Positions 1,220 to 32,772 of a DNA stretch of 64,000 nt are shown here, piece after piece. The DNA lies in the NCBI GenBank assembly GCA_050084515.1, contig CM114271.1, forward strand, positions 11,594,001 to 11,658,000. The letters are read 5' to 3'. Numbering within the stretch: position 1 is the stretch's first letter; every line of letters starts with the position of its first letter. The stretch is from Blasia pusilla. Lineage: Eukaryota. The position numbers and the translations under genes are program-made. The notes under the pieces were generated by a model that worked only from the letters and a program-made list of their open reading frames with translations, did not search any database and was not told the DNA's origin.

Positions 1220-2180
1220 GGTAGGCTTCTTCACTTTCTCCTCGTTCCCCCATTATCTTCAAACCATTCTTCTCTAACACGTTATTTCTAAAACTTGTTG
1301 GATTCCTACCACCTATCGGCATCCGACAGGTTGCATGACTCAAGTAGATTGGCCCTGAAAACGTGAAGAGTAAACATGAAGTGACCATGTGCATCTTCCA
1401 CTTTTTACGTCCTCTAGTACACTCCTAAAATCTGCCTCAATATTAGCCCAGATCTTCCATGCATGCCTACTCTATGGTGACTCTAGGAACACCTTCTTGA
1501 TTGATGCCACGTCTTGCAACAAGTTTGATTCAAATGGGTTGTACATGTTCAAACTTGTGAGAGGAAAGCCCCGGTAACTTGTCTTTATCTTGCAACCCGT
1601 CGGATTCCAACGGCTAGGAAGCTAAAGACAAAAAAAGATAGTGCTTGCAATCTGTCGGATTCTGACAAGTTGCAAGCACTTTTAATAATTTCAGTTTCGC
1701 TCGCACCATGGTTGTGTCGAATGGGGTATTTGATATGGGGAATTCGAGATGCCTTCTAATTGGTTGTTAGATTTTCAGAAAGTGTTGGAGATGAGGGTGG
1801 GAGTCTTGGATAAAGAGCCCACTGTAGGGTATTTTCGAACACGGAGATGCAAGTGTTGTTCATTAGTAAATCCACCTATAAGTTCATTCATGATGGTGGG
1901 TTGGTGTCTCTACTAGGAGAGAGATGATGAACTCTCATTCACTTTCATGATTGAGTGTTGATGTAACGTTTCCATCTTCACATTTTGGTCTGAAAAAATG
2001 TGGTTAGTTTTTCCCCCAAAGTGGTGCACTTCTTACTCTCTTTTAAAAATTGCTTGCATTTGAAGTAGGGGAGAAACCTCAAAAATGACAAAAAAATTGG
2101 AGAGAGGTTAAGGATTTGGCCCTTTTTTTTAGAAGAGAGACTCTCCTCTCTTCCTCTCTCATGCCGAATACCAACCCCCC
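1220..2180 (+). mobile_element. Diverged second copy of the right end of the palindrome-rich Mutator-like element
   Basis: 2112-2180 (GGATTTGGCCCTTTTTTT..AAGAGAGAC.CTCCTCTCTT..GAATACCAACCCCC) matches 22698-22765; 1221-1325 resembles 22068-22170; palindrome copies at 1590-1680. Confidence 0.6.
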
Positions 2181-6884: not shown

Positions 6885-9800
6885 CTATTCATCTTGACTA
6901 TCTGAGCTACTATTTTGCTCCTTCTCATCCTCAAATGTATGAGCCTCATACAGTCCTTCATCTCCATCCTCTATACTAATGGTAGTGTAGTCCATATTCG
7001 CTAGTGCTATTTCTGCATCTGATAGTTGTATTGCCCCAACCAGGGTTACGTTAGGAACTTCACTCTCTAGTTGTGTATGAGCATCAAACCCTCTAGGTTG
7101 CAAGCTATCATTTCTTGATAAGTCTACACTCTCCCCCACTACCCGTCTTGATCGTGCTTCTTTTTGCATAACAACTTTCCATCCTAGCCTATCTTCTACA
7201 TCTCCATAAAATACTTGCTCTACTTGGCTAGGAAAAACAAAAGGATCAGAATTCAAGGGCAGGAATTTTCTAAAGTTGGCTAGTAGGAAACCATTCTCAT
7301 CATAAAGCATGTTGGGTTCTCGGGAGCCCCATGTAGATTGAACCCATTTTCCCCTCATCAAGATAATGGGTTGCTCTAACCGGCCATAATCCATAACTAA
7401 AATATCATACAAGAGGCCAACATAAGGCATGTGATGATTTGCAATGGCTTCCTCCGACGGATGAGATTCAAAGATTGATGCAATCCCCGAATCAAAGGTT
7501 GTGTAATCACTTCCATCATCTACCCTAAAATGGTTTCCATAAGCTTTCATCTTTTTGTATGACAAGTAAAACCGAGAAGGTGGGATCGACAATTTTACAA
7601 CCATATCATCAATGGCATGGCCGAAAGCTATCCATTCTATAATCTTTGGACGGATCCACTGAGAGAATGTGGAATCCCCATTGCCCTCCTCTCTGAACTT
7701 TCTGCACAATAACCAGCGATGACAAACTTTTAAAAACCAACACCTTCCATTAACTACAAAAGGTAGTTATTTCTTTCTGGACAAATAATATGATTCGATA
7801 CAAATAGAAAGGCTAGAAGGAAACTAGATGGAAAGAATTTACATAACACTAGTACTTACTCCAACCATACTGTGAAACATTCACTATTGTGGAGCACATA
7901 TGCATGTGTCACTTCAAGAATTTCAGAGCTCATTTGACGCTTGGTCCCGGCATCTTCTAACACCTCGCCAATAACTCCTTCATCCTCGCTCGCATCCCAA
8001 ACTCTTGTTTGTATGACATCATAGTTTTGCATGTATTCGGTGATGAAACCAAGAGCTTCATCAAGTAGATATCCTTCAGCCATACAGCCTTCTAGTCTAG
8101 CACGTGATCTGACATAATTCTTCAATACACCCAAATATCTCTCCACAAGGTACATCCACCGATATGGAACACGGCCACAAATATCAAGCTCTTCAACCAA
8201 ATGGACAAGGAGGTGAGTCATCACGTCAAAGAAGGAAGGGGGAAAGTGTATCTCCATGAGGCAAAGCGTGGTAGAAATGTCCTCTTTTAAGGATTCAAAA
8301 TCCTCATGGTTGTATGTCTTCACACAAAGGCGTTGGAAAATTGTGGAGATGCGCATGATAGTCATCTTGACTGGGCTTTTCAGGAGTCCACGCAAAAAGA
8401 ATGGTAAGAGTTGTTGCATAAAAATATGATGGTCATGGGACTTAAGTGCACCCACATTCTTCCGTAGAAGATGTTTCTGTAAAGCGCCAGCATAACCGCT
8501 AGGAACTTTTAGACTTTGTACCCTAGCGTCAAATATCTTAATCTCCTCAGGGGTAAGCACGTAATCTGCCTTTGGTTTTAACTTGACGGATGATCTACTA
8601 GGATGCCCTTGAAGCCACAAGTGATGCCTAATTCCCCTAACCTCCATGTCTTGCCTAACTTGAACCGAGTCCTTGTTTTTCATACCAAACAAGGTTTTCA
8701 ACATATTGTTCGCAACATTTTTTTCACAATGCATAATGTCAAGGGTATGACGGATCAATAAATCTTGAAAAATTATCAAGAAGGAATAGTGTGAATTTCG
8801 GGTTCATCCATGCACTCAACAAAGAAACCAGTAGGTGATCAAACCAACACAATTACCACAAGAAATGGAAAGTGTGGAAAAGTATGAAAAAATGCAAACA
8901 TCTTCAATAGGTTTTACTCACCTTCCAATAAGGCAGCTCGAATAGAATGCTCTTTCGTTGGACCCCATACACTTTGTAGGGATCAACCATCCTCTGCTCA
9001 CCCCTCTTGTGCCTAGGTCTTGGCGTTTCATCAAATATCTTCTTCATTTCAGCCCATCTCAATATGTCATGACTGGTCACGCGCTTGGGCCTTGGACAAT
9101 TTTCAATATGTCGATTGAAAAGATGCGCAAATTGGATCTTCCTGTAAGGATGATTCCTATCTTTATACCGTCGGTGGCCTTGAAATGTTGGCTTATGCAA
9201 AGGTTTAGAATAATATGAATCTACTTGTGGTCCACACACCACGCATGCCAGTTTTCCCTTGGTACATTGGCCAGAGACCACACCTAGCCCAAGATAGTCA
9301 CTAATAGTGCATATGATCATGGCTCTAAGAAGGAACTTATCTTGGCCTTCAGGAAGAGAACTATCATATGCAACAACTCCTTTCCAAAGTAGTTGAAACT
9401 CGTTTACAAGTAGGGCTAAATACACATCTAAGTTATGAGAAGACACTGACTCCTTACCATGAATGATCAAAGCCAATTGGAGAAAGAATTTCTTTGTACA
9501 CAACCATGGTGGAAGATTGTAGTTCACCAAAATAACAGGCCAAGTTGACCAAACTAAACTCTTTTCCCTAAAAGGATTTACTCCATCTAAAGCGAGCCCT
9601 AATCGACACTTACGAGGCTCGTTCATGAACTCTGGCCAACGCTCATCTATATCTTTCCACTGTCGACAATCTCCAGCATGACGCACTTTACCATCGCTAC
9701 TTTTGTTTTCTGATGTCCATTTCATTAGTTCAGCTATGGTCTTACATCTATACATACGTTGTAGCCAAGGGATAATTGGAAAGTGTCTGAGAACCTTTAC

Positions 9801-10098
9801 ATCAATCTTTGTTTTCCCTTGCACCTTATATCGAGGGGAGTTGCACTTTGAGCAATTCAACAAGTCCTTATGCTCTCCATTGAAGAGCATACAACCATTG
9901 GGACAACAATGAATTTGAATATAATTCAAACCCAACTTATTGATCAATGTTTTTGCATCATAGTGGTTTCTTGGAACCACATTCTCATTGGGCATGACTT
10001 GCAATGCCAGGAATTTTAGGATCTCATCCACATCAATATTTGAGACATTGTGAGTACCACATATGTTTAAGAACAACATGGTGAATGCAAGTTTGCAA
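6885..10098 (-). CDS. tnpD: CACTA TnpD transposase (Transposase_21 + DUF4218 + DUF4216-type segments), 3 exons, N-terminus missing
   Basis: IHCCPNGCMLF, LRHFPIIPWLQRMY, RLGLALDGVNPF, STWPVILVNYNLPPW, SILFELPYW | RHTLDIMHCEKNV, LKSHDHH, FPPSFFDVMTHLLVHL, RWMYLVERY | PFVFPSQVEQVFY; GT donors at 8921 and 7859. Confidence 0.92.
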
Positions 10099-10500
10099 GG
10101 TGCGGTAAGAGGAGAGGAAGAGAGAAAGAGAGGAGAGAGGAGAGAGGAAACTACCTTCAACCGAAATAGATACTTTTTTTTTAAGAGAGTTTCCGTTGGG
10201 TTGAAGAGAGGAAACTTTTTGTGTGAATTTTTTTGCACTTTTTTGTTCATTTATTAAACAATCCCATAGTTTTTTTTTCCTCTTCCATATTTTGGCAACC
10301 CCTTTGAGTCGGACGAGTTGCAAATTGCACAAAATTTACAAAACTGAGAAATCAATGGAATCATAAGTGTGGAACCAATCACTTTTTCCATCCAAGGTTT
10401 GGAAAAAATCTATCATTTGCCCCGGGCTGAATAGAGTTCAAGCTCACAGTGAAGGTTGAGAAAAAAATAAAAGTACAATCTAAAACCTCATGTTGCATCC

Positions 10501-13500
10501 TCAAAGTGGTTTGTTTAAAATACTTCGAACTTCTTTGAGGGACGAATTGGTTGGTGGATTCCTACTCCTACCTCCGACTCTCTTAAAACTACCAAAGAAC
10601 ACATAGTACATGTGCTTACAAGGGAAATACCTTTTGCCACTTGTCTCTCTTTGGACAAAGTCATCACATGAACATGTGGGAAAGCAACAGATGTGCACCA
10701 CATACACCCCTCTGACACTTGAATTTACAGTGTTGTTCGTGACCCAATACATCCTTCCTATTTCATTGCCACTCAGGACATCTTTCGTGGCAATGATCTC
10801 CATTTTTGCCTCCCGAGTGCTTTGCAATTTGTTTTGCTCTCTCCACCGTTGGCCTACACATCTTTGTTTCTCTTCACCCCATTTCTAGACTCAAACAGAA
10901 ATAATGGATTGAGATCATCCACCTTCTCCGGTACATGTTGACATCAATCTCGGGTTGAATACAAAATGCGAAGGTCTCTGAATGCGAACATGCTCCAAAC
11001 TTCCCCGTCTCACGAGTTTGAAACCGGCACTTGTAAGATTGTCCACCGCCTTGAGTGCGTTCGTACTGCTCATGCAATGGGCCAAATCGTGAGGGTATTC
11101 CCTGGAGCTCCAATGGCAGCGGATAAGACTTCCGAAAGCGCAAGATTCATTTGGGCGAAGATGTACTTCAATTGATCGGTCCTCGTGAAACGATCAAAGG
11201 TTTTGAGTCCCCAAAACCAGGCAATGGTCGTCGATCCCTTGTACGATTCTTAGGAAAGTGCCGCATGCTCTCCTAATGCCATCGATTCTACGCCTGCAGG
11301 TGGGTCCACGCCCAGGGTTGCTCCGAGATATATGCCACCGTTTTAGGTTGCAATCCACCTCCATTACCGGAATCCCATATTGTTGAACCACCCCAGTGAC
11401 ATGATGTTGCGAACTTCCAGCAACGGAGGGCTTTTGAAATAAAACATTCATTGATTTTGGAGAAGTAACTCCATCACGGATTTGGGACGGGTCCGGGGTC
11501 CTCGAATACCTGGGCGGTGTAATTTCCTCATCCAAATCAATCACCGGATTTGTTCCTCGATGTCGCCTCTTCACCGCTCAAGTCAAGATACTTATCTGGT
11601 CTCCACGAGTCTCGTTCGGACTGCTCTACCACCATCTGTATGGGACGTCTTGAAACCCGCCCATGAATATCCCCACCTATGTGTACGTCTTGCTCGAGTG
11701 GAGTTCCAGCTACGCACCGGTTGAAGGCTTCGACATACAATTTTTCATCACCAGATCTCACGGCCATACGACATAGAGCTCGTAGATCGACGACCCTTTT
11801 CCTTTTGTTATGCCTTTTGTGAGGAAGATATGGGATGCTGCAGACTGTAGCATTGCTCTTGCCTGGTCTTGTTGGCATGCCTCCACAAGTGAAATTCGTT
11901 GGCATGCTTGTGACGACCTCCAAGAGGAATGAACACTTTCTGCTCCACTTGTGTTGGGGCAGAGGGCATTTTCATGAACGTTCAATCCCTGCAACGACGG
12001 AAATGTTAGAAGGGAACGAAAATAACCCAGGAGTCAAAGAAATAAGCAACCTGTCGGAACTAGACGGGTTGCAGGCCCGAGGCATCCCATGAACGACTCT
12101 GCGACCCCTCGGGTCCCGACGTGTTGTAACCTTAAACCCACATGCTGCAACCCGTCGGAACCTGACGGGTTGCAAGGCCGAGGCATCCCATGAACGACTC
12201 TGTGACCGGTCGGGTCCCGAATGGTTGCACACTCGGGACGACACCAGACATCTGGATGCAACCCGTCGGTTTCCGTCGGGTTGCACCCTTGGGCAACTCG
12301 TTGGTTTCCGTCGGGTTGCCCGAGTGTGCAACCCGTCGGTTTCCGTCGGGTTGCACACTCGGGCAACCCGTGGCATCCGACAGCTTGCTTGGTTTCTTGG
12401 GTTTGAAATCCATATAATTCCCACGCTTCTCACCCTGAGCTACAACTTTACAAAAAATTCTCAGCGTGAGCTTGACAAGACAAAATAGTGAACTCACCTG
12501 CCGCATGAAGTTTCCCCATTGTCTCATACGTACAGTCCACCAACTCAACCAAGAGCACAACTCTTTGTACTTCCCCTCAATTGCATGCTTCCTCCACCAC
12601 CCATGAAGTTCTTCCTGGCAGTCCATGGCCTGCTTCAAGGTTTTGTTGTCCTTGCATCGTTGGAGTAGAGTGACATGCTCTGTCCTCTTATTCTCCTTGC
12701 TGCAAGATTTGGTGTACCGGGTCACAGACTGTTGCCAATGGAAAGCATCCGACCTTTCCCTCTCCAGTTGAACCTCTCCATCCCATAACACTTCCCGGAT
12801 AGCAATCCACCCAGGTTGTGCATTTTCCGCCATGAACCCATAAATTTCCGGAGGTGGCCTTTTGTTTTCCTTCACCACCTCCAATAAGAGTAACCAGCAC
12901 ATCTTCAAACTGCCAACGTCTTCTGCCTTTACTTCACACACAAATATAGTTTTGAGTCCCTTCTCCACATGGTCATAAACGTGAGCACCCATCGTCAACC
13001 ATCCGTTCAGCACTCTATAGCAAATATCAAAGTTGACCCAGCTCCCGTAAAAATCTTCTCCTTCCCTCATTCGATCTATAAGATCGAGGCCACTCGAGGG
13101 ACCTGTGGTTGACATTTTGAAGACATAGGCCCTGGATCCCTCGCCTCCTTGGCCCATGAACTGCCATCTCTGAATGAATGGAAATCTGGAGTTGGCCTTG
13201 ATTCTGGCGATGGCATCCATTTCGGCCGTCTTTCCATCCGTAACTCGATCGTCGACGCAAACAAATTCGGAAGCATTCAGGATCAGCGAGAAATGCGAGA
13301 TTTTCCCAGAGTTGTTTCTCCTCAACCGCCGTGATCTCGCCCTGTCCAGGGATTCCAAGCAATTGTTCACAAATTTGTGATGCCGTTGTGAGCTTGATCA
13401 CCCCGGGCTTTGAACCCGGAGAGTTTCTGAAGACCTCGGCTACTTTCTTGGCCACATCCTCCTTGATGTGTCTTTGAATTGCATCGGTCACAGGATGAGT

Positions 13501-14475
13501 GTGGGAGCCAACATGAACTGCCAGCCTTGTATACTCTGACGTGGAGCCCAAGTCATGGACAATGAAAAATATGTATGCAAGACACGCTCCAATGCAGAAG
13601 GGCGACGCTTGACAATGAGGACATCGATGGCCTCCCGGCGGTATTGTGGCACCCACCTCGTATGGAGTTTCTGCATTCTTGGGGGGGAATTGCGACGTAT
13701 TGACTCACCCGTTGCGCTCTAGATACGGGCATGCTGGACTTCTACACTCCAAGGCTCCCACGCATTGGCGGCGGGAGACAATCCAAGGACCATCTGGGAT
13801 GGAAGCACTGGTCCGTTGAAGCCTGCACCATCGATGACAATCAGACTTTCTGTCCATACCCTTCAGGCGTCCTCCATCCTTCTTTTGAGCAAGAGCAGCA
13901 AGTGGAGGCAACTCAAAAATGCAATTACCATCGTACGTGGGCGGCACCTCGTCGACAAGAATGTGCTTGAACATTTTCAAGGGCAGAGACGAAAGCAAAC
14001 TATTGCCTGATACTCGCAAGAGGAACGAGTAGGCGGACACAGGGCCCGATTGGTGTCCGACAGATCCGCTGAGGTTGATAACATCCGGGATCTCTTCAGG
14101 AAGAACAACGTTGTTACGAGTGTGCAAAGTTGGAGTCGAAGCCGGATCTGCAGAGCTTGGAGTTGCAAACGTAGAGCTCGGAGCACTAGGAAATTCTAGA
14201 CCGTCTATTTGGGAAACAAACGAATTCAGGGGCAGGCCGTAAACTCTGTATTGACCATTTGCAACAGGTAGGAGATTCCATACTTTACGGTCTGAGGTCA
14301 CTGGCTGGACCGTCTCACCTATTATGTCTTCCGTACCTTCCATCCTAACATCTTTGGATACAAAGATGGTTCCAATTTGAAGAAGAGATCGAACAGACAG
14401 AAAATTTTCATCCACTACTACGAAAGACTCACGAGCTTGGGGTCGAATGATTTCTGATTGAGGAAGGGCCGCCAA
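10501..14475 (-). pseudogene. MULE/Mutator-type DDE transposase with N-terminal GCM/WRKY-like Zn finger and C-terminal SWIM finger (frameshifted)
   Basis: CVGALECRSPAC..CPHC..HVGSHTHP (13490-13765); VNFDICYRV, GFMAENAQ, RSDAFHWQQS (12730-13040); GT-AG intron 12497-11989 joins QWGNFMRQ to GLNVHENALCPNTSGAESVHSSW (third catalytic E); SWIM CSCDDF..PCKHMYYV (10600-10680). Confidence 0.8.
12045..12385. repeat. Palindrome array in the transposase intron
   Basis: Repeated GCAACCCGTCGG-N3-CCG(A/T)CGGGTTGC units inside intron 11989-12497. Confidence 0.9.
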
Positions 14476-14764
14476 GTGAGCTTAACATAATTATCCATTC
14501 CAAGAAGATTCCTACGGGAGGAGACTGAGAATGAGAATGAGAATGAGAATATTTAATTTATAGTGAATAGGAAACAGATACTCCTGACAGATTTTTACTG
14601 ACAAGATGAATTCGGTGGGGGAGATTGTCTGACACAATGGATCCAATTTTGTAACACATTCAATTGTGTTGCAATATGTTACCGGATTTGGGAAGAAGAG
14701 GGTTGCGCATCACTTGGAACCCATCGGAGTCCTGGTAACTCAGAAATTACCCGAAGCTTACCGA

Positions 14765-15432
14765 AGCCTGCAACACGTCGGCATCGGACGGGTTGCAAGC
14801 TTCTGCTAAACATTGTCGAAGCGAGCAACCCGTCGCTCTCCGACGACTTGCTGGGATACCGCTCCTTCTTGCTTGAAGATGCCGGAGGCGTGCAAACCGT
14901 CTGTTCCCGACGAGTTCCACGGGTGCCTCGCCTTTTAGCCCAAAGACGGCGAGGCGTGCAACCCGTCGCCGTCCAACGGGTTGCGCAAGGGCGTCGCCTT
15001 GTGGTGCAGCCAGCCAGACTCCGACGACTTGCACGGGAAGCCATCGTTCCTAACCCTTGATGAGGGAAGCGCACCCAACAGCTCTCGACGGATTGCCCAA
15101 AATACGTCCCGTTCCCGTCCCAAACATGGCGGAGGCGCGCAACATGTCGGTCTCCGACGGCTTGCGCGGGTACCTCGCGTTGTTTTCCGAAGACCACGGA
15201 GGCGCTCAACCCGTCGGTCTTCGACGGGTTGCTCGCGCACATGGCGATGTTCGCAGGATGGCGGAGGCGCGCAACATGTCGGTCTCCGACGGGTTGCGCG
15301 GGTACCTCGCGTTCTTTTCCGAAGACGACGGAGGCGCTCAACCCGTCGGTCTCCGACGGGTTGCTCTCGCACGTGGCGACGTACCCAGGATGGTGGAGCC
15401 GCGCAACTTGTCGGACTCCGACGGGTTGCAAT
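14765..15432. repeat. Palindrome array in the divergent intergenic region, including a 132-bp tandem duplication
   Basis: For example CAACCCGTCGG-TCT-CCGACGGGTTG at 15339-15363; tandem units start at 15126 and 15258. Confidence 0.9.
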
Positions 15433-15518
15433 TTTTCACGTCCGGACTTCCGTAACATTTGGCACGTCGCCGTCGAAAGGACGACGGGACCCAACGGTCA
15501 GCCCAACGGCTAGAAAAG

Positions 15519-15526
15519 TATAAATA
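15519..15526 (+). promoter_or_regulatory. Candidate TATA box of the ParB-MTase gene
   Basis: TATAAATA just downstream of the array, ~280 bp upstream of ATG 15803. Confidence 0.45.
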
Positions 15527-17009
15527 GGGCAGAAATCGCTCATTTCCGGTTTCTCATTTTGCAATCTTCATTCCTCACTCCTCACTCTCCGCGCAAGCAG
15601 CCTGATCGATATCTGAAGGGGCATTTCACGCGGCGACACATCGCGAGTCGATAGGAGGGAACGAGAGCGAGACGGTTCGACCGAGCAATATGGGGACGAT
15701 TCGAGCTAACCATCAAGGCGAGACGAGCTCCCATCTCGACATCAGCAAGGCGACTGATCAAGGGATTTGTCATGGACATAGGTGGAGGCATTTCCGGCAA
15801 AAATGACGAGGAAAAAAACACAAGCCAACAAGTCTGGGAGCTTCACTCCCAAGTCCATTAGGACTCCTGCATCAGCTTCTCCTGGGCCTCGTTCGGCAAA
15901 TGAAATTAGGCAGCAAGAAATCGAGGATCGGGAAAGGGAAGCGGAGATGCACAACCAAGTGCTTCTGGCGAGACGTGTTCAAGCGGCGCTGGATAAACAT
16001 AACGAAGAGGCCGAGACGTCGCAGGCCTTGAAGAAAAGGATCGCCGACGAAAAGAGAGAAAAGAAGCGTCTAGACGCGTCGGTGAGGAGGGCAAAATTGG
16101 CTAAAGCGAGGCGGGAAAAAGCGATAGCCATTGACGATAGCCCAGCCCGTCCAACCGCAAGTGTTGAGATGTGGGAAATGTCCCCCACGAATTCCGGGGA
16201 CACAATCAACATAGTGGAAACAACACCAGTTCAAATTGATGACGACGAGGTCATGAGGACCGCCAGCGTGGAGATGGTGGACATGGCCAAAGAAGCCGGA
16301 GAGCGGTCATTCTCGACTCCAAGCCCGGCGGAGGACATTGACCTCTATCGAATCAACGAGTTCCCAGTCGATTTTCCAGCCCCTGTCTCAGACAAGTTAG
16401 CTGGTCAAGAAACCGACTCCATTTTCGAGCGGGTAAGAGAGGTTCTGGGTTTTTTTAATTATGTGAATTGCAATTCATTGGGATTTCAGTGTAGCTTATT
16501 CCTCTTGTCCTGGTTCGACGGTGGTAAAGCAGATGGCACTCATGGAGGGCCACAACGCCCGAGGATTCCACTCTGCCGACAGGACAATGGAATACGTCCC
16601 GCGAAATCTGATCCGGCGAGGACATCGCAAAGCTAAAACAATCGCGGCGACAAAGATCCCACGTGGGACGGACTTTCCTCCCTTCTATGTTCAGCCTTAC
16701 GACGAGCATGGAACCCAAGCTCAGTTATCGAGGAGGACTTGGAAAATCTCGACACATCTCGGAGGATGCGAGACCAGGACTTGAAGGCAAGTTGAGGGCA
16801 CGGAATTCAGCTGGATGAGGAATCGCATTTCTTCATCTCTGGGGATGGAAATCACAGTTCATGGCGTGGACCAAGTTTGCGGAGAAGCGCCACAACTCAT
16901 TGAGGCACATTTTGCGTGAAGGCGGTGGTCCTTCACCCATACCCTCATCACATGGCGACGGTGGAGATGGCAATGCATGCCATGAACACGTGAGTATCTT
17001 TAACATTTT

Positions 17010-17968
17010 CGCAACTCGTCGGACTCCGGACGAGTTGCTCGATTGATGAATGGGTTAGGTTTTTTAGCGAAAGCAACTCGTCGGACTCCGACGGGTTGCT
17101 AGATTGCACGCTTTTCCGGATGTTTTTTTAAGATTGCAACTCGTCGGACTCCGACGACTTGTTTGATGGAACATAGATTTAACTAGTTTTTGGCCCAAAG
17201 CAAACCGCCGAGTCGGACGGGTTGCTCGACAAAGTCGCATTGTGAGGATGTTTTTGAAGAGTCAACTCGTCGGACTCGAGCGACTTGTTTGATTGAACAT
17301 AGATTTAAGTAGTTTTGGCCCAAAGCAAACCGTGAGTCCGGCGGGTTGCTCGATAGGTCGCCTTGTGAGGTTGTTTTTAAGAATGCAACTTGTCGGACTC
17401 GACGAGTTGCTCGAGGATCGCAGGTTTAGAAGGTTTTGCCCCAAAGCAACCCGCCGAGTCCGACGAGTTGCTTGCCTCAAACGCTTTTGGCGAAATCAAC
17501 CCGCGGACTCCGGACGGGTTGATATGGGGAAAAATAGTTGAGGCAAGCAACCCGTCGGACTCGGACGACGGGTTGCTTTGGGGAAAAACCTTCTAAACCT
17601 GCAGATCCTCGAGCAACTCGTCGAGTCCGACGAAGTTGCATTCTTAAAAAACTCACAAGGCGTTAATCAGCAACCCGCCGGACTCACGGTTTGCTTTGGG
17701 CCAAAAACTAGTTAAATCTATGTTCAATCAAACAAGTCGTCGGAGTCCGACGAGTTGCAATCTTAAAAAAACATCCGAGAAAGCGTGCAGTCCAGCAACC
17801 CATCGGAGTCCGACAAGTTGCTTACCTGGCATTAGCAAATGTGAATGCAAACCGTCGGACTCCGATGGGTTGCATCATTTAGCTTGTTGCTAGAATCCGA
17901 CCCTGATCTGTGACGACCCGTCGGAGTCCGAAGGGTTGCAAGAACCCATGTAACTTCCTGACGGGTTG
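17010..17968. repeat. Palindrome array forming a long foldback inside intron 16990-17983
   Basis: ~17075-17505 is reverse-complementary to ~17515-17825, e.g. GGTTTAGAAGGTTTT/AAAACCTTCTAAACC and ACATAGATTTAACTAGTTTTTGGCCCAAAGCAAACC/GGTTTGCTTTGGGCCAAAAACTAGTTAAATCTATGT. Confidence 0.9.
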
Positions 17969-20074
17969 AGTTTGGATGTGCAGGATTGTATCAGAGGGGA
18001 ATGTCACCCACCATTGGATCCAGGACTGCGATCGGGTGAGGAAGGTGCTTACGACGACCGGGAGAGTCTGAGGGGTTCTTGGGCGATGCCCTCGTCAATC
18101 AGATGCTTGCAAAGGGTGCTTAGATTAAGAAGAAAACTTGGGCAAACAAGTTTATTTCTCAAGATGCAGCCGTAACCATCCTTTGATGGTCGAAGATACA
18201 GGCCGCGAAGAAAAGCGCTGCATTGGAGCTGGAGCGGAGGGAGAAGGTATCTGCGTCTGGCGCGCTAAATTCATCAGCTGCCAGATCTGCTGCAACAAAA
18301 TACACGGCGAGCAAGATGCGGCGATACATCAAGCATTCTCAACCCCGATCTTGGTCCGGAGTTCTACAAGGAGCTCAAGGCGATTATCAAGCGTCGGCCG
18401 AAGAGGGATGAAGATCCGCATGGTCCGATTGGGAGAAAGTGTCGCCAGATCGCGTGCATCGTTTTGCGTTATCCGGGATTAGCGATTCAGGAGGATACGA
18501 TCGATGAAAATCGATCTCGAGGGCTCAGAGGCCAGAAGAGGGCGGCACACCATCCTCCGGGTGTGTCCGATCCAATGATCTCGCATTGGCTACGCGAATG
18601 GTCGTTCTGGGACGCGTTGCGGGTAATCGGGAAGTCCGCGGCCGACCGGCAAGCCGGAGCTCGGAAGATTAGAGCCCATTCGGCCGGAAGCAAACCTTGA
18701 AAGTTCCGAGATTACGAGGTTTGGCTCGACGACATCCGGGACAAGCCAACCAAGAACCCTGGATTCAAGACCATGTTCAAGGTTTGCGTCCTCCCTCAGG
18801 CAGAGCTTGACGAAGAAGTAGAGGGTAACAAACGGGATCAAGCGAAGAAGAAGCGAGATCTACAGGAGCAGACGGCCGATAATGTTCGACTAAAAGCTGC
18901 CCAACGGATGGTATTCATGTACCTCGTCCAGTGTAAGAACGCACGTACGTGGGGAAAATTACCGGTAGCCTTGAAATTGTGGGCATCACCGCCGGATGCA
19001 GAGACATTCTCCATGTACGACGTGGAGATGGGTCAGCACATGTCGGATTGGGAGGTGGAGAATTGCCCCATTTGGCTCGACTTCAACAACCCTGAAGACA
19101 TCACGGATAAGGACTTACGAGTGCCTCATGATGATGCAAAGGGCTGAGGATAAGACGACATCCCCAATTCGTCCCGGCCTGAAGACTTCTTGGAGGAGAT
19201 GAAGAGTAGGCCCACGAGGCAGTGAGTTGGCTTCCAAGGTCCGGATAGCCAAAGACAAATCCACAGCGGGTCTCAAAGGCAAGGCGAGGGAGGGAAAATT
19301 CAGAGGCCGAGACTTCCCAAAGAGAGCCTAAAGATGAGAGGCCGAGGCGGAATCGTCGGACGAGCGAGGGAGAGAGGGTCGGACCAGGTCCTCGGCGAAG
19401 AAAACGCCACCAGAATCTGAGGTCATAGAAACCCCGACAAGCCGTCCCCATACTAGGGAGAAGCGGAAGCGAGAGGTGCCCGGGTTGTCCCAAGGAGAAT
19501 ACAGCCCATCATCCTTGGGAAGACACAGACAAACAACGACCGGACAAGCGTGCTCCTTGTTCACCTCTTTCTTGGATGAGAGCGACTTCAATTCTCAGCG
19601 TTGACAACTGCCATCGAAAAATTGACAACGCTGGGACGGAAGCTCCAACGAAACGGGCACGCTGCCTGGACGGTGAATGGAGTGGTCGAAGAGGTTGCGA
19701 TGGATCTCTTGATCGCCGATCTGCCCTCGGGGTTGCGACTTTGGGGCGAAAATCCGGCGGACGAGGTACCTGAGTGGAATCTGCCGCTCACTTATGACCA
19801 GATTGCACTTTTGTTCTCTTTGCGCACGCCTATCCGAGTGACAGGGGCTGCTTCTTGGTGTTGACTGGAGGGAGCAAGGAAGAGCTCTTCAACCTCCAGT
19901 GCGTCAAGAGGTCGCTAAAGTGGAGGACGGCACAATCGTGGATCATCAAAAACGAGTACCCACTCCGATCCGCGACGAGTCAGATTCGGGTAAGGCTCAA
20001 TTCCTGTACAATAATTTCAATTATCTTATAATGATGTGTAGAATGAGAGTCAATCTGGGTTTTTTTTGTCCGTG

Positions 20075-20450
20075 AGCAACCCGTCGGAAGGCGACGGGTT
20101 GCTGGCTTAGAGCAGCCCATGCTCGGCTGAGAGCAACCCGTCGGTTTCCGACGGGTTGCATCTTTCCCACATACACAGGGAAAACCGCGGTGTACCTGCA
20201 ACCCGTCGGAACCCGACGGGTTGCAGTTGATTTTGGTTTTTGGATGCAACCCGTCTAATAGCGACGGGTTGCTATCAGACGGGTTGCTCTCAGGCGAGCA
20301 TGGGCTGGTCTAGGCCAGCAACCCGTCGCCTTCCGACGGGTTGCATCCGAAAACCAAAATCAACTTGGAAAACCCAAAAGCAACTGCAACCCGTCGGGTT
20401 CCGACGGGTTGGTCCGGGACAAAACAACCCGTCGGACTCCGACAGGTTGA
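20075..20450. repeat. Palindrome array with nested inverted repeats in the intron splitting the MTase domain
   Basis: Perfect GCAACCCGTCGG-TTT-CCGACGGGTTGC at 20133-20159; 20076-20142 is inverted relative to 20278-20345. Confidence 0.9.
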
Positions 20451-22769
20451 TCCAAAGTCAGTTATTGAAAATCTTCTCAAGGCGACTTCTTTAGTTTCTG
20501 ACATTGTTTCGTCTTTGATTCTGGATGGACCACTCCTACGTGTCGCCGTTCGCCCGAGCACAATTTCCAGGTGTTCAAGATCCAGGATCCTGTGGATCCA
20601 TGCTCAGATGGGTACAGCTTAGATAGTTTGTACAATTCCCCCCCGGGAATTTACATGCAAGATAGTACCCCGCAGGAGGAAGGAAAAGTCGTCGCCACCA
20701 CGATGCAACGCTCATCGAGCTCTGCTCAAGGCCGGGTGACTTGGTGTTCGACTTAGTGGGCCTTTCGGGGCGAGTATCGAGGCGCTGGCGAGTGGCGGGA
20801 ACATTCTCGCCTCGAGGGAAGACAGAATCGTTTGACCTTTGCAAGGAGGCAAAGGCGAATCGAAAGGCTCGTTGGGGCGTACAACTCTCCACGAAGCCGA
20901 GAGCTCCGGTTCGAGCCACCCTTGGTAGTGACTCCATCGTCACTTCCAACGATTCCCAAAATCGGGAGGGCAAGGCGAAAGTGATTTTGCAAGAGCTCTC
21001 GGACGATGACGAGTGAGTTCAAAGAACTCAACGACCAGCTTGATGCACTGCGTTTGGAGTAGGGAGTTTTTGATAATTTGGCAAAAGATTTCATAGAATA
21101 GATCAAATGTACAATTCGAGCTTTTTTCGGATGATATAAAGCGAGAAGATTTTTTCGATCGATGGTGGTGCTTGTAAATGTTTTTGATCATTTTGTCTTT
21201 TCGAATGTGATCGTCTATGTACTCCACGGTCTTCTACTTTGCAACCCGTCGGATTTCTCCTGCTTGCAATTTTCACTTTATGACCACCGCAACCCGTAGG
21301 ATTTCTCCTCCTTGCAACTTTTCGCTTTTGACCATCTGGACCCTTTTACCACCTCCAGGCAACTGCGATTCGACCAGTTGCTCGATCGACCCTTTCGGAT
21401 CAGCGATCTGGCGGGCTTCTTCCTTGGCACCTTCCCCTCAACTCGTAAAGGCGGCGAGGCTTCTTTTCTTCTCTCAGGCGTGTTGGATTCCTTCTACTGT
21501 GCGGTTGCCATAGTGGTATTACCGGGGCGGAGCAGATATTGATATTGGATGGGTGTCACATTGCGGAGCGTACAAGGTATCTTTGCCGAGGAAGGCGGTG
21601 GGACTCGAGACAGTTACATGGGACCGTTATGGTGTACCTAGGGGGGCCAAGGCTCTCGAGTCGCCAACATTTTCGATCCCCGTCTACAATCGGCCGGAGG
21701 AGCCACTTGAATCCCAAGACATTCCTTTGGTACATCACCGAGGAGAGTTAGGAGTAAATTTGTAGATGACGAGGTGAAGAAATCATAGACTAGGTTCAAT
21801 GTACATTTCGAGGTTCCTTCGGAGGTAATAAGGACGAGATTTTTCAACCCATAATGGTGTTTGTAAAAGTTTTCTAGAATATGTTTTTGGACTTGTGGAT
21901 TGTGTTCTTTTAGCTACTCGAATTACAATTACGCAACCCGTATGATTCGACTTTTTGCTTTTTGTCCACCGCAACTTTTTAACCATTTCAGGCAACCTCT
22001 CGGATTCCGACAGGTTGATTGCTTGAGTGATCGGACTCTATCCGGTGAGACCAACCGGCGCATTGTGGCGGGCTTCTTGACTTTTGGCTCGTTCCCTTCA
22101 TTCGTCCAACCGGTTGTAGGCTTCTTTTCTTGTCTAAGATGTGCAAGATTCCTACTACCTGTCGGATTGCCATTTCGGATTCCCAACCCGTTAGATCGTC
22201 GTGGGTGCAGGGTGGAAGAAAATCACTTCTAAAAATCTTTCGTTTCTTATGGTGAGCTTTCTTACGGGTTGGGAGGTGCGACTTCTCGGTTTGAGCCTAG
22301 GATCTGATTTTTCACATTTCAAAAAGTTGGTCTTGAGCAGACACCATTCATAACCGACAGAAAGTTGGTTATGGGGCAATTTAGGGGAGGCCATGATGCA
22401 AGCAACAATCCCTGCAAAAAGAGAGGTACCCATCCGGGTGTTCCTCCAACAAAAATACCAAGGGCACTGCTTTTTGTTGACCGATACAGGGAATGTTAAG
22501 AAACTTAGGCTCACATGGACAGTGATGGAAAAATGTTTAGGGTGGTCTTATGATGTCTCCTTTTTTCTCACCCCCAGGAAAGAGGAGGCTTTTTTAGGGC
22601 CAAATGTGGACCACTACCTACTCTCTTCTAAAGATCTCCTGAATTTGAAAGCAAACGAAAATTTCAAATATGTCAAAAAGTTTTGAAGAGAGGAGGCGGA
22701 TTTGGCCCTTTTTTTTGAAGAGAGACACTCCTCTCTTACTCTCTCTTGCCAGAATACCAACCCCCGACA

Positions 22770-23674
22770 GGATGGTGCTAGAAATTATCTGCAAGTAAAG
22801 AAAGGGAAAACTCTTCACAAAGAAAAGGATGATGGTAGTGAGGAAGATGTCAGTCACGGCAAGAGAAGAGAACGTGGACCCGTTTCTTCCAAATTTCAAG
22901 GTCGGGCTCCTAGCCATGACCGGCACAACAAGCCCGACCTTCACGATTCAAGGCGATCAACATCTAGTCATCATGGTTGCAACTATCAGGTTCAAGCTCC
23001 GCGCGCCAGTTGTGATTCTTACAGTGATGCCCGACGCAATGGAGATTACGATCATCCGGCACTTGATGAGACACGAGTCTCGACAGAGGATACTGAGGGA
23101 CGAGATAGAGACAAGGGCAGAGAAAGAGATAGAGAAACGAGAAAGGGAAGCGAAAGAGAAAGAAGGAACGAGGATCGAGAAAGAGATACCGAATTAGCGC
23201 CAAAGGTAAAATTGGAGTTAGGGAGTCCAACATTGACAAAGATATGGGCAGGGAAGGGAGAATTGAGAGAGATAAGAGCAAGGAAAGAGAACGTGAAAAA
23301 GGAAGAGAACAAGGCAGGAGTAGGTTGAAAGGGAGGGACTTCTTTGACAAGGATAAGGACATGGAGAGGAGGAATGGAGGTGGTCAGAGCAGAGACGGCT
23401 ACAGAGATAGAGATAGAGATAGAGACAGGGAAAATGAAAGGAACAGAAGTAGGTACACCTCTAGAGATTCCAGCAATCACAAAGAGGTGGATTCAGGAGA
23501 TGGACGAGGGAGGAGCAAAGACAAAGAGAGAGTGAGAGACAAATTCCAGTCCAAAGCGGGAGCTAAAAGTTATCCATACTTGGATGGAGAAGAGAAAGAT
23601 GTGATTCATGACAAAGAGAAAGAACGAGAGAAAACTGGAGACAAGCCTTCAGGCAAAGAAATCCTTGTCGACAA
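22770..23674 (+). pseudogene. Arg/Asp/Glu/Lys-rich host-gene-like exon, 5' part (interrupted by the gypsy element)
   Basis: RDRDRDRDRENERNRSR-type low-complexity ORFs; reading frame rejoins 33358 onward once the insertion and TSD are removed (…EILVDNDLHMEKEN…). Confidence 0.6.
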
Positions 23675-24041
23675 TGTCATGACTATACGGATTATGTCGT
23701 AGAGTATGGTGTGCTAGTAGAGGCCATTCCTTATGTAGGACCGTAGTGGATTGGTAGAGATGCGGTTCCATACATAGGGTTGGGGGTTAGTCAGTTGGGG
23801 GTGACTTTCCCAGTAGGGCCCGCTCTTAGGTTGGAGGATATAAGGTGGAGTGCACTCAAAGAACAGTCACTTCTTTGAGTTGAGCCTGTTGCGTTGGGAG
23901 TTAGCCTTGGTAGTGAGTAGAGCTCTTGGCTATGGTGTTCCCGTAAGCTTCGACCTAGATTCTCCCATCGTGGAGTGGGTTTGGCTCGACTGTATGTGAT
24001 TGTAAACGTGTTTTATGACATGAGGTCTTTCACGGATTTCA
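23675..24041 (+). repeat. Terminal repeat B1
   Basis: Near-identical to 32877-33247. Confidence 0.93.
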
Positions 24042-25697
24042 CTCAAGAACAGGAGTAGATCGATGGTAACCGATTGTAGATCATAGGATCTGGTTAGGGT
24101 GATTGTGTACTCAGCCGTGGATGTTTGCGGCTTGTTGCCTATGTTGGAGGTGTGAATCAGGTGCGTGGTTGGTTGGGGAAAGAAGCGCCTTGCTGAGAGC
24201 TTTCAACGCGCTTTAGATCGCGGATTTCGTCAAGGGAGTTGGAAGTTATCAAGGATTGAAGATTACAGTTCGTGTTCGACGGTTTTCGATGTGGAGAGCT
24301 TGGAGTGCGGAAGTGTGTTGAAGTTCATCCAGATCGGGTGAGAGGTTCCTGTTGCTACTCATATTGTGATCTCCTATGAATCTATATTTCGAGTGTGTGG
24401 AGCGTTATGGATTTCTGCGTGCATGAAACTTGGCGGAAGCTATTTGCCAGTTTGCGATTCTCGGAGGTGTATGGATGACAAGTTTGTTTGATTTTTAGCT
24501 CGAGTCTGAGCTCGGTTGTAGCTGATTTTCTGTGGAGAGATAGCTATGGTGGTCAATTGAATTCTGATTGAAACAGATTTGATTTCGGTCACGTATTTGT
24601 GAAGTAATTTCTAATCGAAATTTTGCGGACTAGCTCAAGGTCTGGCTATGGTGGACAGCGGATCGGAGGGGCTGGTTGGTTGGTGACTTGTTCATTTTTG
24701 GAGACGCCTATCCCATTGGGGGCGCCCTGGTTGGACCTCTCTCCATAGCGAAGCATGGCGAAGCGTGGCGATAGGGGCATTTCTCGGCGTTTCGAGGCTT
24801 CGAGGCTTCGAGGCAACTCGTGGTAGCTCGGGGCGAGTGGGCGTGAGAGGCGGAGTAAGGAGCAAGGAGCAAGCAAGCAAGGAGCAAGCAAGCAAGCTTG
24901 CTTGCTTGGGCGTGAGGAAATTTTTGAAGGATTTGGGATTTGAGTTTTGCATAAGTGGTCACCCATCTTTGGGCTATTCTGCCTGGAGGACGCTTAACTG
25001 CTGAGTTCTTAACTATGCCAATGTCTGTTTGTTGTAGCTCATTTGGTCTTTGTTCGGAGATGTGTTAGGCGCTTTATGCATCTCAGGTTTTTGGTTGATG
25101 TACCTCTAGCGCATAGTACGGTGTAGCCTCTCCATGTAGGTGATATTTTCAGGTGCTGCGCGTTCGACTAGCACGTCATCGATCCGCGGCGGAATAGCTA
25201 TTGCGTTAGAATTGTGTGGTGGGTTTTGTGGATTCAGAGGGCACCACGTTTGGTGGATTGTGTTACCTTGATTTCCATTTGCGATTGGAGGGTTGTCGTT
25301 GGATTTCTTGTGTTTGGATCCCCTCCATCGTGCTTCTTCTGCTTGGCGCCCATTGTTAGGGTTGACGCTGATTTCGAGTAGTGTTACTCTGTGTGCTACC
25401 GGTAGTGAGGCTGGAGGGATGACGAGTAGATTGTGGGAGACTTCTTGTGGTGATGACAAGTTAGGTTGCCTACACCCATAGCTAGTAGAGCTAGAATAGT
25501 ATAGCGACATCGACGTCACTTGGTAATTTGGTGGTGGTGCGGCATCGGCGTTGGTCATCACGGAGTGTCGGGTGGTCTGGTTGGGGACCGTGTAGTGTGC
25601 GGGATGTGGTGGTTTCACACGGAGTGGATTTAGGTATCGGCTACCTTTTCCACTTCCGACGGTTGATGAAGAGGAGGACGAGGGTGTTCCAGCTCCA

Positions 25698-27000: not shown

Positions 27001-27599
27001 ATGGAGGGATGATCTCTCTTATATGGCGAAAAGGCCGGGTTGAGGCATCAGTGCGATTCTGAAAGGAGCCACTCGGCGTCGAGCCACGTGGTGCTCTTTG
27101 TGGAGTTGGACCCCTGAGAGGGGGTGGGGGGGCGGCTAGGCTTCCCAGTCATTCTTGTTGCCTCGAGGTGCTTAGGACTCCATCCATGGTTCCTCGCGAC
27201 CTATTGAGCCGGCAGTGGGGCCGAGGCATCTACATCGGCGTGTAGTAGACACGGATCAGCATCGATCGATTGCGGATGGCAAGCCGGTGTTAGGATCCCC
27301 ATTGTTTTCGACCACGAGGCGATGGCTTTAGGAGTTGACTTAGCTCTGTATTTCAGCTAAGCGACCACATTGTGTGACGTGGGGTATTCTTGCTACTGCG
27401 TGTTGAGGTGGATGAGGATGTTGCGATGGAGCGACCCTCTATGTCGGGAGTAGCATTGAGTACGGTGCTACTTGGCGGCGGGCGGCGAAGATGGATGCAT
27501 TACCGGCCCGGCCAGCCATTGATCGTGAGAGGCTTACACTGGTGTATGTATGTTGGACAACCGGAGTGGGATCTTCCGATTGGTGAGTCCTCAGGCAGT

Positions 27600-32450: not shown

Positions 32451-32460
32451 GTGCTTGAGA

Positions 32461-32757: not shown

Positions 32758-32772
32758 AGTTAGGGGGCGAGT
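32758..32772 (+). other. Polypurine tract
   Basis: AGTTAGGGGGCGAG immediately before repeat A1. Confidence 0.65.

What the first reader, a model, noticed from the sequence alone, without database searches (positions are those of the whole stretch)
10306..22190. One 27-bp palindrome repeated dozens of times, confined to the non-coding parts of this element
Seen: roughly 40-50 copies (counted by eye) of GCAACCCGTCGG-N3-CCGACGGGTTGC cluster in the transposase intron (12045-12385), the divergent intergenic region (14765-15432), two introns of the ParB-MTase gene (17010-17968, 20075-20450) and near the ends (10306, 21240-22190). The only others seen are at 1590-1680 in the paralogous end. Exons lack it. 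Spacers differ by cluster (TTT, TCT, ACT, ATT), implying local amplification with arm symmetry retained. Established: ParB proteins load on palindromic parS sites, and transposases bind reiterated subterminal motifs. Inference: these are cis binding sites for the element's own ParB-MTase or GCM-like transposase, forming a parS-like self-recognition system in a eukaryotic transposon.
Basis: partly seen in the sequence, partly recalled or inferred. Interest (0 to 1): 0.85.

Follow-up and report, generated by a model that had tools for sequence, protein, structure and literature searches.

The report
Palindrome arrays inside a decayed transposon
A 27-base palindrome is repeated about 45 times, only in the introns, shared promoter and ends of one decayed two-gene Mutator-like transposon, where it most likely served as a binding site for the element's own protein and now also folds into long hairpins.

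Summary
GCAACCCGTCGG-N3-CCGACGGGTTGC gives 24 matches at up to 3 mismatches (0 expected) and 45 loci under a relaxed rule (0-2 per simulated 64 kb). All lie at 10.3-22.0 kb or in a diverged paralogous end at 1.3-1.7 kb. None lies in homology-supported exons or in the other 50 kb.

The copies form four arrays: 67% and 93% of two GT-AG introns, most of a third, and the region between two divergent genes. The motif is conserved across arrays but the linkers are unrelated. The arms show no compensatory covariation. Arrays grew by tandem and inverted duplication and fold into hairpins of up to about 450 bp.

The host element is a multiply broken Mutator-like transposon. Its second gene is methyltransferase-like, on a weak lead only. 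No ParB domain was detected.

Best reading: a family-specific, reiterated protein-binding motif, as in Muta1 and foldback elements, but palindromic and internal. The parS/ParB part is unsupported. Binding is untested. Other copies of the element could not be examined.

The parts
10295..10321 (.). Single decayed palindrome (5 of 24 arm positions off consensus) at the left edge of the element, 45 bp from the neighbouring CACTA TNP2 ORF.
   Evidence: It no longer folds as a hairpin (-1.7 kcal/mol).
10504..14481 (-). Gene 1: Mutator-like transposase, broken. It has an N-terminal Cys/His region, a DDE-type core and a C-terminal SWIM-like finger. There is an in-frame stop at 13705-13707, a frameshift near 13255-13292 and an in-frame stop at 11194-11196.
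   Evidence: Homologue P0001 (742 aa, 44% identity, E=6e-69) mapped by tblastn. Atlas features score 0.95 to MULE/ZSWIM clusters. SWIM E=0.054. No Pfam family passes a cut-off.
11989..12497 (-). GT-AG, phase-0 intron of gene 1 (509 nt), read from the sequence. It splits the catalytic core. P0001's ORF breaks at the same residue.
   Evidence: The acceptor was chosen by eye: a pyrimidine tract plus the downstream frame that carries a ...AES... motif.
12046..12388 (.). Array 1: 8 palindromes filling 67% of the gene 1 intron. Periods are 46-56 bp, then 35 bp. Spacers are AAC/GTC/TTT.
14770..15429 (.). Array 2: 10 palindromes between the two divergent genes. It is flanked by TATA-like boxes at 14556-14562 (-) and 15519-15526 (+). 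The period is about 66 bp, with a 132-bp unit repeated 2.3 times at 92%.
15804..21013 (+). Gene 2: family of unknown function, methyltransferase-like on a weak lead, broken. There is an in-frame TGA at 18698-18700 and a frameshift near 19816. Further frame changes near 18173-18335 and 20740 were read by eye. It has DLPS where amino-methyltransferases have DPPY; the homologue has DLPT.
   Evidence: P0002 was the only hit among 1.84 billion representatives (E=4e-10), mapped by tblastn. Also. No ParB.
16990..17983 (+). GT-AG, phase-0 intron of gene 2 (994 nt). As RNA it folds into a nearly continuous hairpin of about 450 bp.
   Evidence: MFE -657.9 kcal/mol against -314 +/- 8 for 20 shuffles (z=-41).
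17011..17939 (.). Array 3: 14 palindromes, 93% of that intron. It is a foldback centred near 17509. Arms 17071-17207 and 17687-17823 are 95% complementary. Spacers are ACT on the left arm and AGT on the right.
20076..20450 (.). Array 4: 7 palindromes, the best preserved (two are perfect). They lie in the gene 2 intron that starts at 19990 (GTAAGG); the acceptor was not determined. Inverted duplications are interleaved.
   Evidence: RNA fold of 19990-20480: -282.6 kcal/mol, z=-18. P0002's ORF breaks at the same residue.
21241..22018 (.). Right subterminal copies. Two half-sites with decayed partners lie at 21241 and 21289 (48-bp tandem unit). Decayed palindromes lie at 21933 and 21992. All have ATT-type spacers.
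22062..22787 (+). Right-end block collinear with 1215-2200. Homology stops at about 22787/2200, which is a candidate right boundary.
1308..1673 (.). Three decayed palindromes (4-5 of 24 off consensus; spacers CAT, ATT, ATT) in a diverged paralogous right end. That end abuts a retrotransposon fragment.

Best explanation
The 27-bp palindrome is the family-specific, reiterated cis motif of a Mutator-like DNA transposon of about 12.5 kb with two genes. This copy is dead.

Most likely each palindrome is, or was, the site for a dimer of an element-encoded DNA-binding protein. Each 12-bp half-site would be read by one subunit across a 3-bp spacer of fixed length. The best candidate is the Cys/His N-terminal region of the transposase.

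Copies sit at the element's ends, as subterminal repeats do in other Mutator and foldback elements. Copies also sit in every large non-coding stretch inside it. There they multiplied by tandem and inverted duplication into arrays with about 55-67 bp between centres. The arrays now make up most of three introns and the shared promoter region. As a by-product they fold into long hairpins.

Shown: the motif, its counts, its confinement to the element, the array anatomy, the foldbacks, the broken genes and the lack of arm covariation.

Inferred: that a protein binds the motif, which protein it is, and what binding achieves (end recognition, or control of the divergent promoter).
For: 1. Specificity. 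All 45 relaxed copies and all 86 half-site hits at >=12 bits lie in the element or its paralogous end. None lies in the other ~50 kb.
2. Ancestry. The diverged paralogous end (1215-2200, collinear with 22062-22787) keeps copies with the same ATT spacer. One left arm plus ATT aligns with 22152. So the motif predates that duplication.
3. The motif, not its surroundings, is the conserved unit. 2 of 279 between-array linker pairs exceed the 99th percentile of a shuffled null, about what chance gives. Within arrays it is 19 of 99.
4. Half-sites decay independently. There are 80 one-arm changes against 10 two-arm changes (6 complementary; 5.8 expected; permutation p=0.19 and 0.11). This fits sequence read-out rather than selection for pairing.
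5. The spacer is exactly 3 nt in 36 of 45 copies, with free sequence.
6. Precedent. The Mutator-like element Muta1 has 12-bp subterminal repeats separated by 3-4 bp. These raise transposase binding and excision. Its terminal palindrome also matters for binding (passages of PMC5499845). Tm1 is a Mutator/foldback family with ~14-bp reiterated motifs (passages of PMC3169594).
7. Gene 1 is Mutator-like (SWIM E=0.054).
Against: - No binding data exist, and no DNA-binding domain was confirmed. Pfam found nothing in P0001 and AlphaFold gave pLDDT 31.7.
- No terminal inverted repeats or target-site duplications were found. The ends of the element, and so the 'subterminal' status of the end copies, are unsure.
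- Most copies are internal, which known subterminal repeats are not.
- Both genes are broken, so nothing in this copy need be under selection now. Recent duplications (92-95% identity) could be neutral.
- Conservation of the motif across arrays could come from repeated seeding or homogenisation rather than selection.
- Only one full copy and one end could be examined.
- 25 of the 100 arm mismatches are C-to-T at positions 6-7. This points to plain methylation-driven decay.
Confidence: 0.45

Rival explanations
1. A palindromic minisatellite with no protein partner. A hairpin-prone 27-mer spreads and is homogenised by replication slippage, template switching and unequal exchange. It survives only where it does not destroy coding sequence.
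For: Arrays grew by tandem duplication (periods 35, 67/132, 126 and 48) and by inverted duplication (137-nt arms 95% complementary, interleaved inverted units at 20 kb). Perfect copies form stable DNA hairpins (-15.2 kcal/mol). The copy is dead, so recent changes are probably neutral.
Against: This does not explain why four arrays with unrelated linkers share one 27-mer and a similar 55-67 bp spacing. It does not explain why the motif also sits at both ends and in the paralogous end. It does not explain why the motif is absent from the other non-coding ~50 kb of the window.
Confidence: 0.22
2. The internal arrays are nested insertions of foldback-type non-autonomous derivatives of the same family. 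Such derivatives are built only from the reiterated end motif. They were tolerated only in introns and the intergenic region.
For: Arrays 3 and 4 are foldbacks. Foldback derivatives made of subterminal repeats are known for Mutator-like families (passages of PMC5499845 and PMC3169594).
Against: No target-site duplications were seen by eye at array or foldback edges. Linkers are unrelated between arrays, whereas copies of one derivative should share them. No free-standing copy exists elsewhere in the window. Extra palindromes lie outside the long foldback in the same intron.
Confidence: 0.12
3. The arrays act as RNA. The intronic hairpins are diced into small RNAs that carry the 27-mer and direct silencing to the promoter array. 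This would be self-limitation or host defence, in the manner of Mu killer.
For: The intron 16991-17985 folds into a stem of about 450 bp (z=-41) and 19990-20480 folds with z=-18. The same motif lies in introns of both genes and in their shared promoter region. Mu killer is a hairpin-forming inverted duplication that silences MuDR (abstract start of PMC3440606, in the listing).
Against: Compensatory changes do not keep the arms paired. High long-range complementarity is explained by recent duplication. There are no small-RNA or expression data. Rfam gives only four generic hairpin hits, far below the gathering scores (29-37 bits against 80-128). End copies and the promoter array need no RNA role.
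Confidence: 0.1
4. One reading: a ParB-methyltransferase encoded by gene 2 loads on the palindromes as ParB does on parS.
For: The sites are palindromic, arrayed and dispersed over the element's non-coding parts. Gene 2 has a weak methyltransferase-like signal.
Against: No ParB or Srx domain was found by Pfam at E<=1 in 42 ORFs of gene 2, by NCBIfam or by PDB sequence search. P0002 finds nothing in phage or plasmid records. The exact motif is absent from 596 Gb of prokaryote genomes. The putative catalytic tetrapeptide is DLPS/DLPT, not DPPY.
Confidence: 0.05

Closest known systems
Subterminal repeats of Mutator-like foldback elements (Muta1 of Aedes aegypti; Tm1 of Meloidogyne)
   Same: A Mutator-type transposase accompanies a 12-15-bp motif reiterated with short linkers. 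In Muta1 the motif is 12 bp with 3-4-bp linkers. The repeats form foldback structures. In Muta1 more repeats give more transposase binding and more excision, and a terminal palindrome matters for binding (passages of PMC5499845; PMC3169594).
   Different: Here the 12-mers are paired head-to-head into 27-bp palindromes rather than lying in direct tandem. The palindromes are about 55-67 bp apart. Most lie inside the element, in three introns and the shared promoter region, not in long terminal inverted repeats. No terminal inverted repeats or target-site duplications were found.
Bacterial ParB-parS, and dispersed operator sets such as KorB on RK2 or sopC on F (recalled; no call)
   Same: Short palindromes are reiterated and dispersed in non-coding parts of a mobile replicon and are bound by the replicon's own protein.
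   Different: No ParB domain was detected in either gene. The motif is 27 bp and is absent from prokaryote genomes. There is no evidence of segregation or spreading. This is a nuclear transposon.
Mu killer and other hairpin-forming inverted duplications of transposons
   Same: A long inverted repeat in a Mutator-type context would give double-stranded RNA if transcribed (abstract start of PMC3440606).
   Different: Mu killer duplicates transposase-coding and terminal-repeat sequence. Here the arms are non-coding arrays inside spliceosomal introns. They share only the 27-mer with the promoter region.
En/Spm (CACTA) subterminal 12-bp TNPA motifs (recalled; no call)
   Same: 12-bp motifs occur in both orientations, some as inverted pairs. 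They are bound by an element-encoded protein and overlap the promoter.
   Different: This element has a different transposase superfamily and a different motif sequence, and its arrays lie in introns. The CACTA TNP2 gene next door (6888-10250) carries no copy of the motif.

Membership tests
ParB-parS type system | An encoded protein with a ParB/Srx N-terminal domain and a helix-turn-helix | tested here: not met
   0 families at E<=1 in 42 ORFs of gene 2 and 25 of gene 1. NCBIfam found none. PDB phmmer on 16467-16781 found none. P0002 had no Pfam family and no phage or plasmid match. Caveat: the gene is fragmented, so sensitivity is reduced.
ParB-parS type system | Palindromic loading site recognised by that protein; CTP-dependent loading and spreading | not testable with these tools
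   The palindrome exists. Binding and spreading need experiments.
Mutator-like (MULE) transposon | DDE transposase of the MULE/IS256 type | tested here: inconclusive
   Atlas features scored 0.95 with 168 shared features; all ten best hits that carry a family share a family or clan with the best of them, the MULE/ZSWIM RNaseH-like set. SWIM E=0.054, below the cut-off. PF10551 was not found by hmmscan.
Mutator-like (MULE) transposon | Terminal inverted repeats and 8-10-bp target-site duplications | tested here: not met
   No inverted match was found between 10150-10520 and 21000-23300 beyond 10-13-nt chance hits. The 25 longest of 274 inverted pairs in 10000-23200 are all internal. The copy is old and its edges are unsure.
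Foldback-type reiterated transposase-binding repeats (Muta1/Tm1/FB) | A short motif reiterated many times with short linkers, giving secondary structure | tested here: met
   There are 45 palindromes and 86 half-sites. Foldbacks are shown.
Foldback-type reiterated transposase-binding repeats (Muta1/Tm1/FB) | The repeats make up the long terminal inverted repeats of the element | tested here: not met
   39 of 45 copies lie in four internal arrays. Only 3 decayed copies lie near this element's edges, and 3 lie in the paralogous end.
Foldback-type reiterated transposase-binding repeats (Muta1/Tm1/FB) | The transposase binds the repeats | not testable with these tools
   Needs EMSA or DAP-seq.
   Within the window: 0 hits at >=12 bits outside the element and its paralogous end. 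A genome-wide test was not possible; no eukaryotic genome collection was open.
Introner-like elements | A repeated element itself creates the intron: its ends match the splice sites, it has target-site duplications, and homologues lack the intron | tested here: inconclusive
   The arrays fill 67% and 93% of two introns. But the ORFs of the distant homologues P0001 and P0002 break at the same residues, followed by V (GTN). This suggests that the introns are older than the arrays. No duplications were seen.
Known RNA families | A match to an Rfam model at its gathering score | tested here: not met
   Four miRNA-model hits at 12300-12382 scored 29-37 bits, against gathering scores of 80-128.

The most novel reading that the evidence does not exclude
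A rare, undescribed two-gene transposon family carries a self-recognition system. Each of its genes has only one detectable relative in libraries of billions of proteins. An element-encoded protein would read a 27-bp palindrome that the element has planted in its own promoter, in the introns of both its genes and at its ends. That protein could be the transposase's Cys/His domain or the methyltransferase-like gene 2 product. The element would thereby be marked, regulated or assembled as a unit along its whole length rather than only at its tips. This would be a eukaryotic counterpart of dispersed operator or centromere-like site sets on plasmids.
Probability: 0.15. Interest if true: 0.8.

Novelty: new variant of a known kind. 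Interest (0 to 1): 0.45.

Why it matters
Reiterated binding motifs are a known feature of DNA transposons, but they are normally confined to the ends. Here one palindromic motif fills the introns of both genes and the shared promoter region of an element from a very sparsely sampled family.

If a protein of the element reads these sites, that would show a transposon organising or regulating itself through internal sites. It would also give a defined 27-mer and protein pair to test.

The intronic arrays also form some of the longest near-perfect hairpins one could expect in a spliced intron. That bears on how transposon transcripts trigger or avoid RNA silencing.

If the arrays are only a palindromic minisatellite, the case is a tidy example of non-coding repeat growth within a dead element and nothing more.

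Tried and rejected
- Array ORFs as protein queries, a proxy for a database-wide motif scan. The ORFs 14679-15497(-) and 12037-12429(-) gave no hit at E<=0.01. They had 4433 and 3 word-sharing candidates, and only proteins of 149-476 and 72-230 aa were searched. This is a weak negative.
- Exact motif in 596 Gb of bacterial and archaeal genomes: 0 matches.
- Transposase alignment A2 against the same collection: 31 pattern matches, none confirmed by tblastn.
- Literature search for either 12-mer: 2 papers, both unrelated by title and abstract start (listing only).
- AlphaFold on 186 residues of P0001's Cys/His region, single sequence: pLDDT 31.7, unusable. No fold search was made.
- PDB sequence searches with P0001 and three gene 2 pieces: nothing significant. 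The best was E=0.063 to a hypothetical protein. A precorrin methylase motif-I match scored E=0.28.
- Terminal inverted repeats were not found.
- Continuation of the neighbouring CACTA gene to the right of the element was not found: 67 ORFs in 21000-27500 gave 0 Pfam families at E<=0.01.
- A 'nano-MITE' reading, in which each 27-mer is two abutted ends with target duplications, was rejected. No direct repeats flank individual copies (by eye).
Their sources, names and contig context are therefore unknown.
Other copies of the element stayed unchecked.

Full report
OBSERVATION

The motif GCAACCCGTCGG-N3-CCGACGGGTTGC is real and far beyond chance. With up to 3 mismatches it occurs 24 times, while none of 100 dinucleotide-preserving shuffles gave a single match. 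The 12-nt half-site occurs 17 times exactly and 52 times with at most one mismatch. All 52 lie in the 1, 12, 14, 15, 17, 20 and 21 kb bins.

A relaxed rule allowed up to 4 mismatches per arm, up to 6 in all, and a spacer of 0-9 nt. It gives 45 non-overlapping loci. The same rule gives 0-2 in each of 20 simulated 64-kb sequences with the element's composition.

A half-site weight matrix at 12 bits finds 86 sites, against a mean of 1.7 in 30 block shuffles. Seventy-seven are in four arrays, five are near the element's edges and four are in the paralogous end. None lies in the exon blocks or in the remaining ~50 kb. The matrix came from 26 of the 45 copies, so only the absence elsewhere is independent evidence.

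ANATOMY

The arrays are 12046-12388 (8 copies), 14770-15429 (10), 17011-17939 (14) and 20076-20450 (7). Decayed single copies lie at 10295, 21933 and 21992, half-sites at 21241 and 21289, and three decayed copies at 1308-1673.

- Thirty-six of the 45 copies have a spacer of exactly 3 nt, and its sequence is free.
- Centre-to-centre distances inside arrays are mostly 55-67 bp. Distances of 120-133 bp occur where a unit has decayed, and 35 bp in one tandem run.
- Arrays grew locally. Tandem Repeats Finder reports periods of 35 (12258-12371), 67/132 (15118-15429, 92% for the 132-bp unit), 126 (17125-17472) and 48 (21241-21334).
- Arrays also carry inverted duplications. Arms 17071-17207 and 17687-17823 are 95% complementary. 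20061-20159 pairs with 20261-20359, and 20199-20241 pairs with 20369-20411.
- As RNA, 16991-17985 folds into an almost continuous hairpin of about 450 bp: -657.9 kcal/mol against -314 +/- 8 for shuffles, z=-41. For 19990-20480 z is -18.
- Perfect 27-mers form DNA hairpins of -15.2 kcal/mol. The end copies no longer do.

WHAT IS CONSERVED

The linkers between palindromes are recognisably related within an array: 19 of 99 pairs lie above the 99th percentile of a shuffled null. They are not related between arrays: 2 of 279 pairs, which is what chance gives. The palindrome itself is shared by all arrays. So the 27-mer is the conserved unit, not a longer repeat.

The two arms do not co-vary. Of 432 mirrored positions in the 36 copies with a 3-nt spacer, 80 differ from consensus in one arm only and 10 in both. 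Six of those 10 are complementary, and 5.8 two-arm changes are expected. Permutation gives p=0.19 and 0.11. Pairing is thus not kept by compensation; each half-site simply stays near one consensus. A quarter of all arm mismatches (25 of 100) are C-to-T at positions 6-7, in CG/CHG context. I read this as methylation-driven decay; that is an inference.

THE HOST ELEMENT

Gene 1 (minus strand, 14481 to 10504) has one long relative, P0001 (742 aa, 44% identity over 79% of the query, E=6e-69).
- Language-model features place its core with MULE/ZSWIM RNaseH-like clusters (0.95, 168 shared features).
- A SWIM finger scores E=0.054 at 10504-10884.
- No Pfam family passes any cut-off.
- tblastn with P0001 shows an in-frame stop at 13705-13707 and a frameshift near 13255-13292. 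Another in-frame stop lies at 11194-11196.

Gene 2 (plus strand, 15804 to 21013) has one relative among 1.84 billion representatives, P0002 (E=4e-10).
- tblastn and the three-frame read show an in-frame TGA at 18698-18700 and a frameshift near 19816. More frame changes were read by eye.
- Both proteins carry DLP[ST] where amino-methyltransferases have DPPY.
- The atlas gives 0.85 to TRM11/UPF0020/N6_N4_Mtase clusters, which is a lead only.
- A motif-I-like stretch matches a precorrin methylase at E=0.28.
- Nothing supports ParB: Pfam, NCBIfam, PDB and phage and plasmid records all gave no match.

This copy is dead, and its family is very thinly sampled.

INTRONS AND PROMOTER REGION

Read from the sequence, array 1 lies in a GT-AG, phase-0 intron (12497 down to 11989, 509 nt) and fills 67% of it. 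Array 3 lies in a GT-AG, phase-0 intron (16990-17983, 994 nt) and fills 93% of it. Array 4 follows a GTAAGG donor at 19990; its acceptor is undetermined.

The ORFs of P0001 and P0002 break at exactly the residues where the first and third of these introns begin, each followed by a valine codon. This suggests that the introns are older than the arrays.

Array 2 lies between TATA-like boxes at 14556-14562 (minus strand) and 15519-15526 (plus strand), that is, in the shared upstream region of the two divergent genes.

ENDS

No terminal inverted repeats or target-site duplications were found. The block 22062-22787 is collinear with 1215-2200, and homology stops at about 22787/2200.

The paralogous end keeps palindromes with the same ATT spacer as the right end here. 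One left arm plus ATT aligns with 22152. The motif therefore predates that divergence.

On the left the element abuts a CACTA TNP2 gene (6888-10250). No continuation of that gene was found to the right.

MECHANISM

I commit to the following reading. The palindrome is the family's reiterated protein-binding site, most likely for a dimer of the transposase's N-terminal Cys/His region. It is present at the ends and was amplified in all non-coding parts. The hairpins are a by-product.

What favours this:
- The motif is specific to the element.
- Half-sites decay independently of each other.
- The spacer has a fixed length but free sequence.
- The motif is conserved over unrelated linkers.
- The arrays lie in the shared promoter region.
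- There is a Mutator-like precedent. Muta1 has nine 12-bp subterminal repeats separated by 3-4 bp, which raise transposase binding and excision, and a terminal palindrome whose symmetry matters for binding (passages of PMC5499845). Tm1 is a Mutator/foldback family with reiterated ~14-bp motifs (passages of PMC3169594).

What is against it:
- No binding data exist and no DNA-binding domain was confirmed.
- The termini are not defined.
- Most copies are internal.
- The copy is dead, so its recent duplications may be neutral.

Confidence is 0.45.

Rivals:
- A protein-free palindromic minisatellite (0.22).
- Nested foldback derivatives of the family (0.12). No target duplications were seen, and the linkers are unrelated between arrays.
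- Intronic hairpins as a small-RNA source in the manner of Mu killer (0.10; only the abstract start of PMC3440606 was seen).

COMPARISON AND NOVELTY

The nearest known kind is the reiterated subterminal repeat of Mutator-like foldback elements. Here the motif is palindromic and internal, and the defining 'long terminal inverted repeats' were tested and not found. So I do not file it as a member, only as working like one.

ParB-parS, KorB operators, sopC and the En/Spm TNPA motifs are analogies that I recall; no call supports them. ParB fusions to adenine methyltransferases in some chlorophytes and chytrids are described in PMC4738411 (passages), but nothing links them to this gene.

The 12-mers appear in the searched literature only in two unrelated papers (listing). 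Rfam has no family for the arrays. I rate this a new variant of a known kind.

LIMITS

Only one full copy and one end could be studied. No eukaryotic genome collection was available.

Noticed in passing
window 6888-10250 (-): Pieces of a plant-type CACTA TNP2 transposase gene directly abut the left edge of the palindrome element: Transposase_21 E=1e-60, DUF4218 E=1e-36, DUF4216 E=3e-4. Its N-terminal part is missing, and no continuation was found to the right of the element.
   Followed up: partly
window 1-1000 (+): Fragment of a retrotransposon pol gene with stops (RT_RNaseH_2 E=1e-16 at 276-722). It lies just left of the paralogous end at 1215-2200, which it may have truncated.
   Followed up: no
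window 23669-33247: Direct repeats 23669-24041 and 32871-33247 are 94% identical. They bracket a tract with strong GC skew of 0.24-0.33. The tract holds an ORF with a C-5 DNA methylase match (28105-28749, E=1.3e-5) followed by RVT_1 and RNase H (29867-30784). This looks like an LTR retroelement carrying a cytosine methyltransferase-like piece.
   Followed up: no
window 34117-35539: Near-perfect tandem repeats (97-100% identity). The many offset self-matches indicate a short-period array.
   Followed up: no
window 42628-43224, 53896-55182, 57568-58805: Repeat family at 85-90% identity in direct and inverted orientation. 53896-55175 is inverted against 57568-58805. A protein kinase ORF lies at 52766-53410.
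   Followed up: no
window 22687-23699 (+): Long ORFs rich in Arg, Glu, Asp and Ser (RS/RD/RE repeats) lie just right of the element. They have no Pfam family.
   Followed up: no
window 31700-32770 vs 62711-63806: A 1.1-kb inverted match at 70% identity between distant parts of the window.
   Followed up: no
window 21100-22300: The 3' non-coding tail of the element contains a diverged direct duplication: 21409-21511 matches 22066-22173 at 72%. The decayed palindromes and half-sites on either side appear to lie at matching places, as judged by eye.
   Followed up: partly
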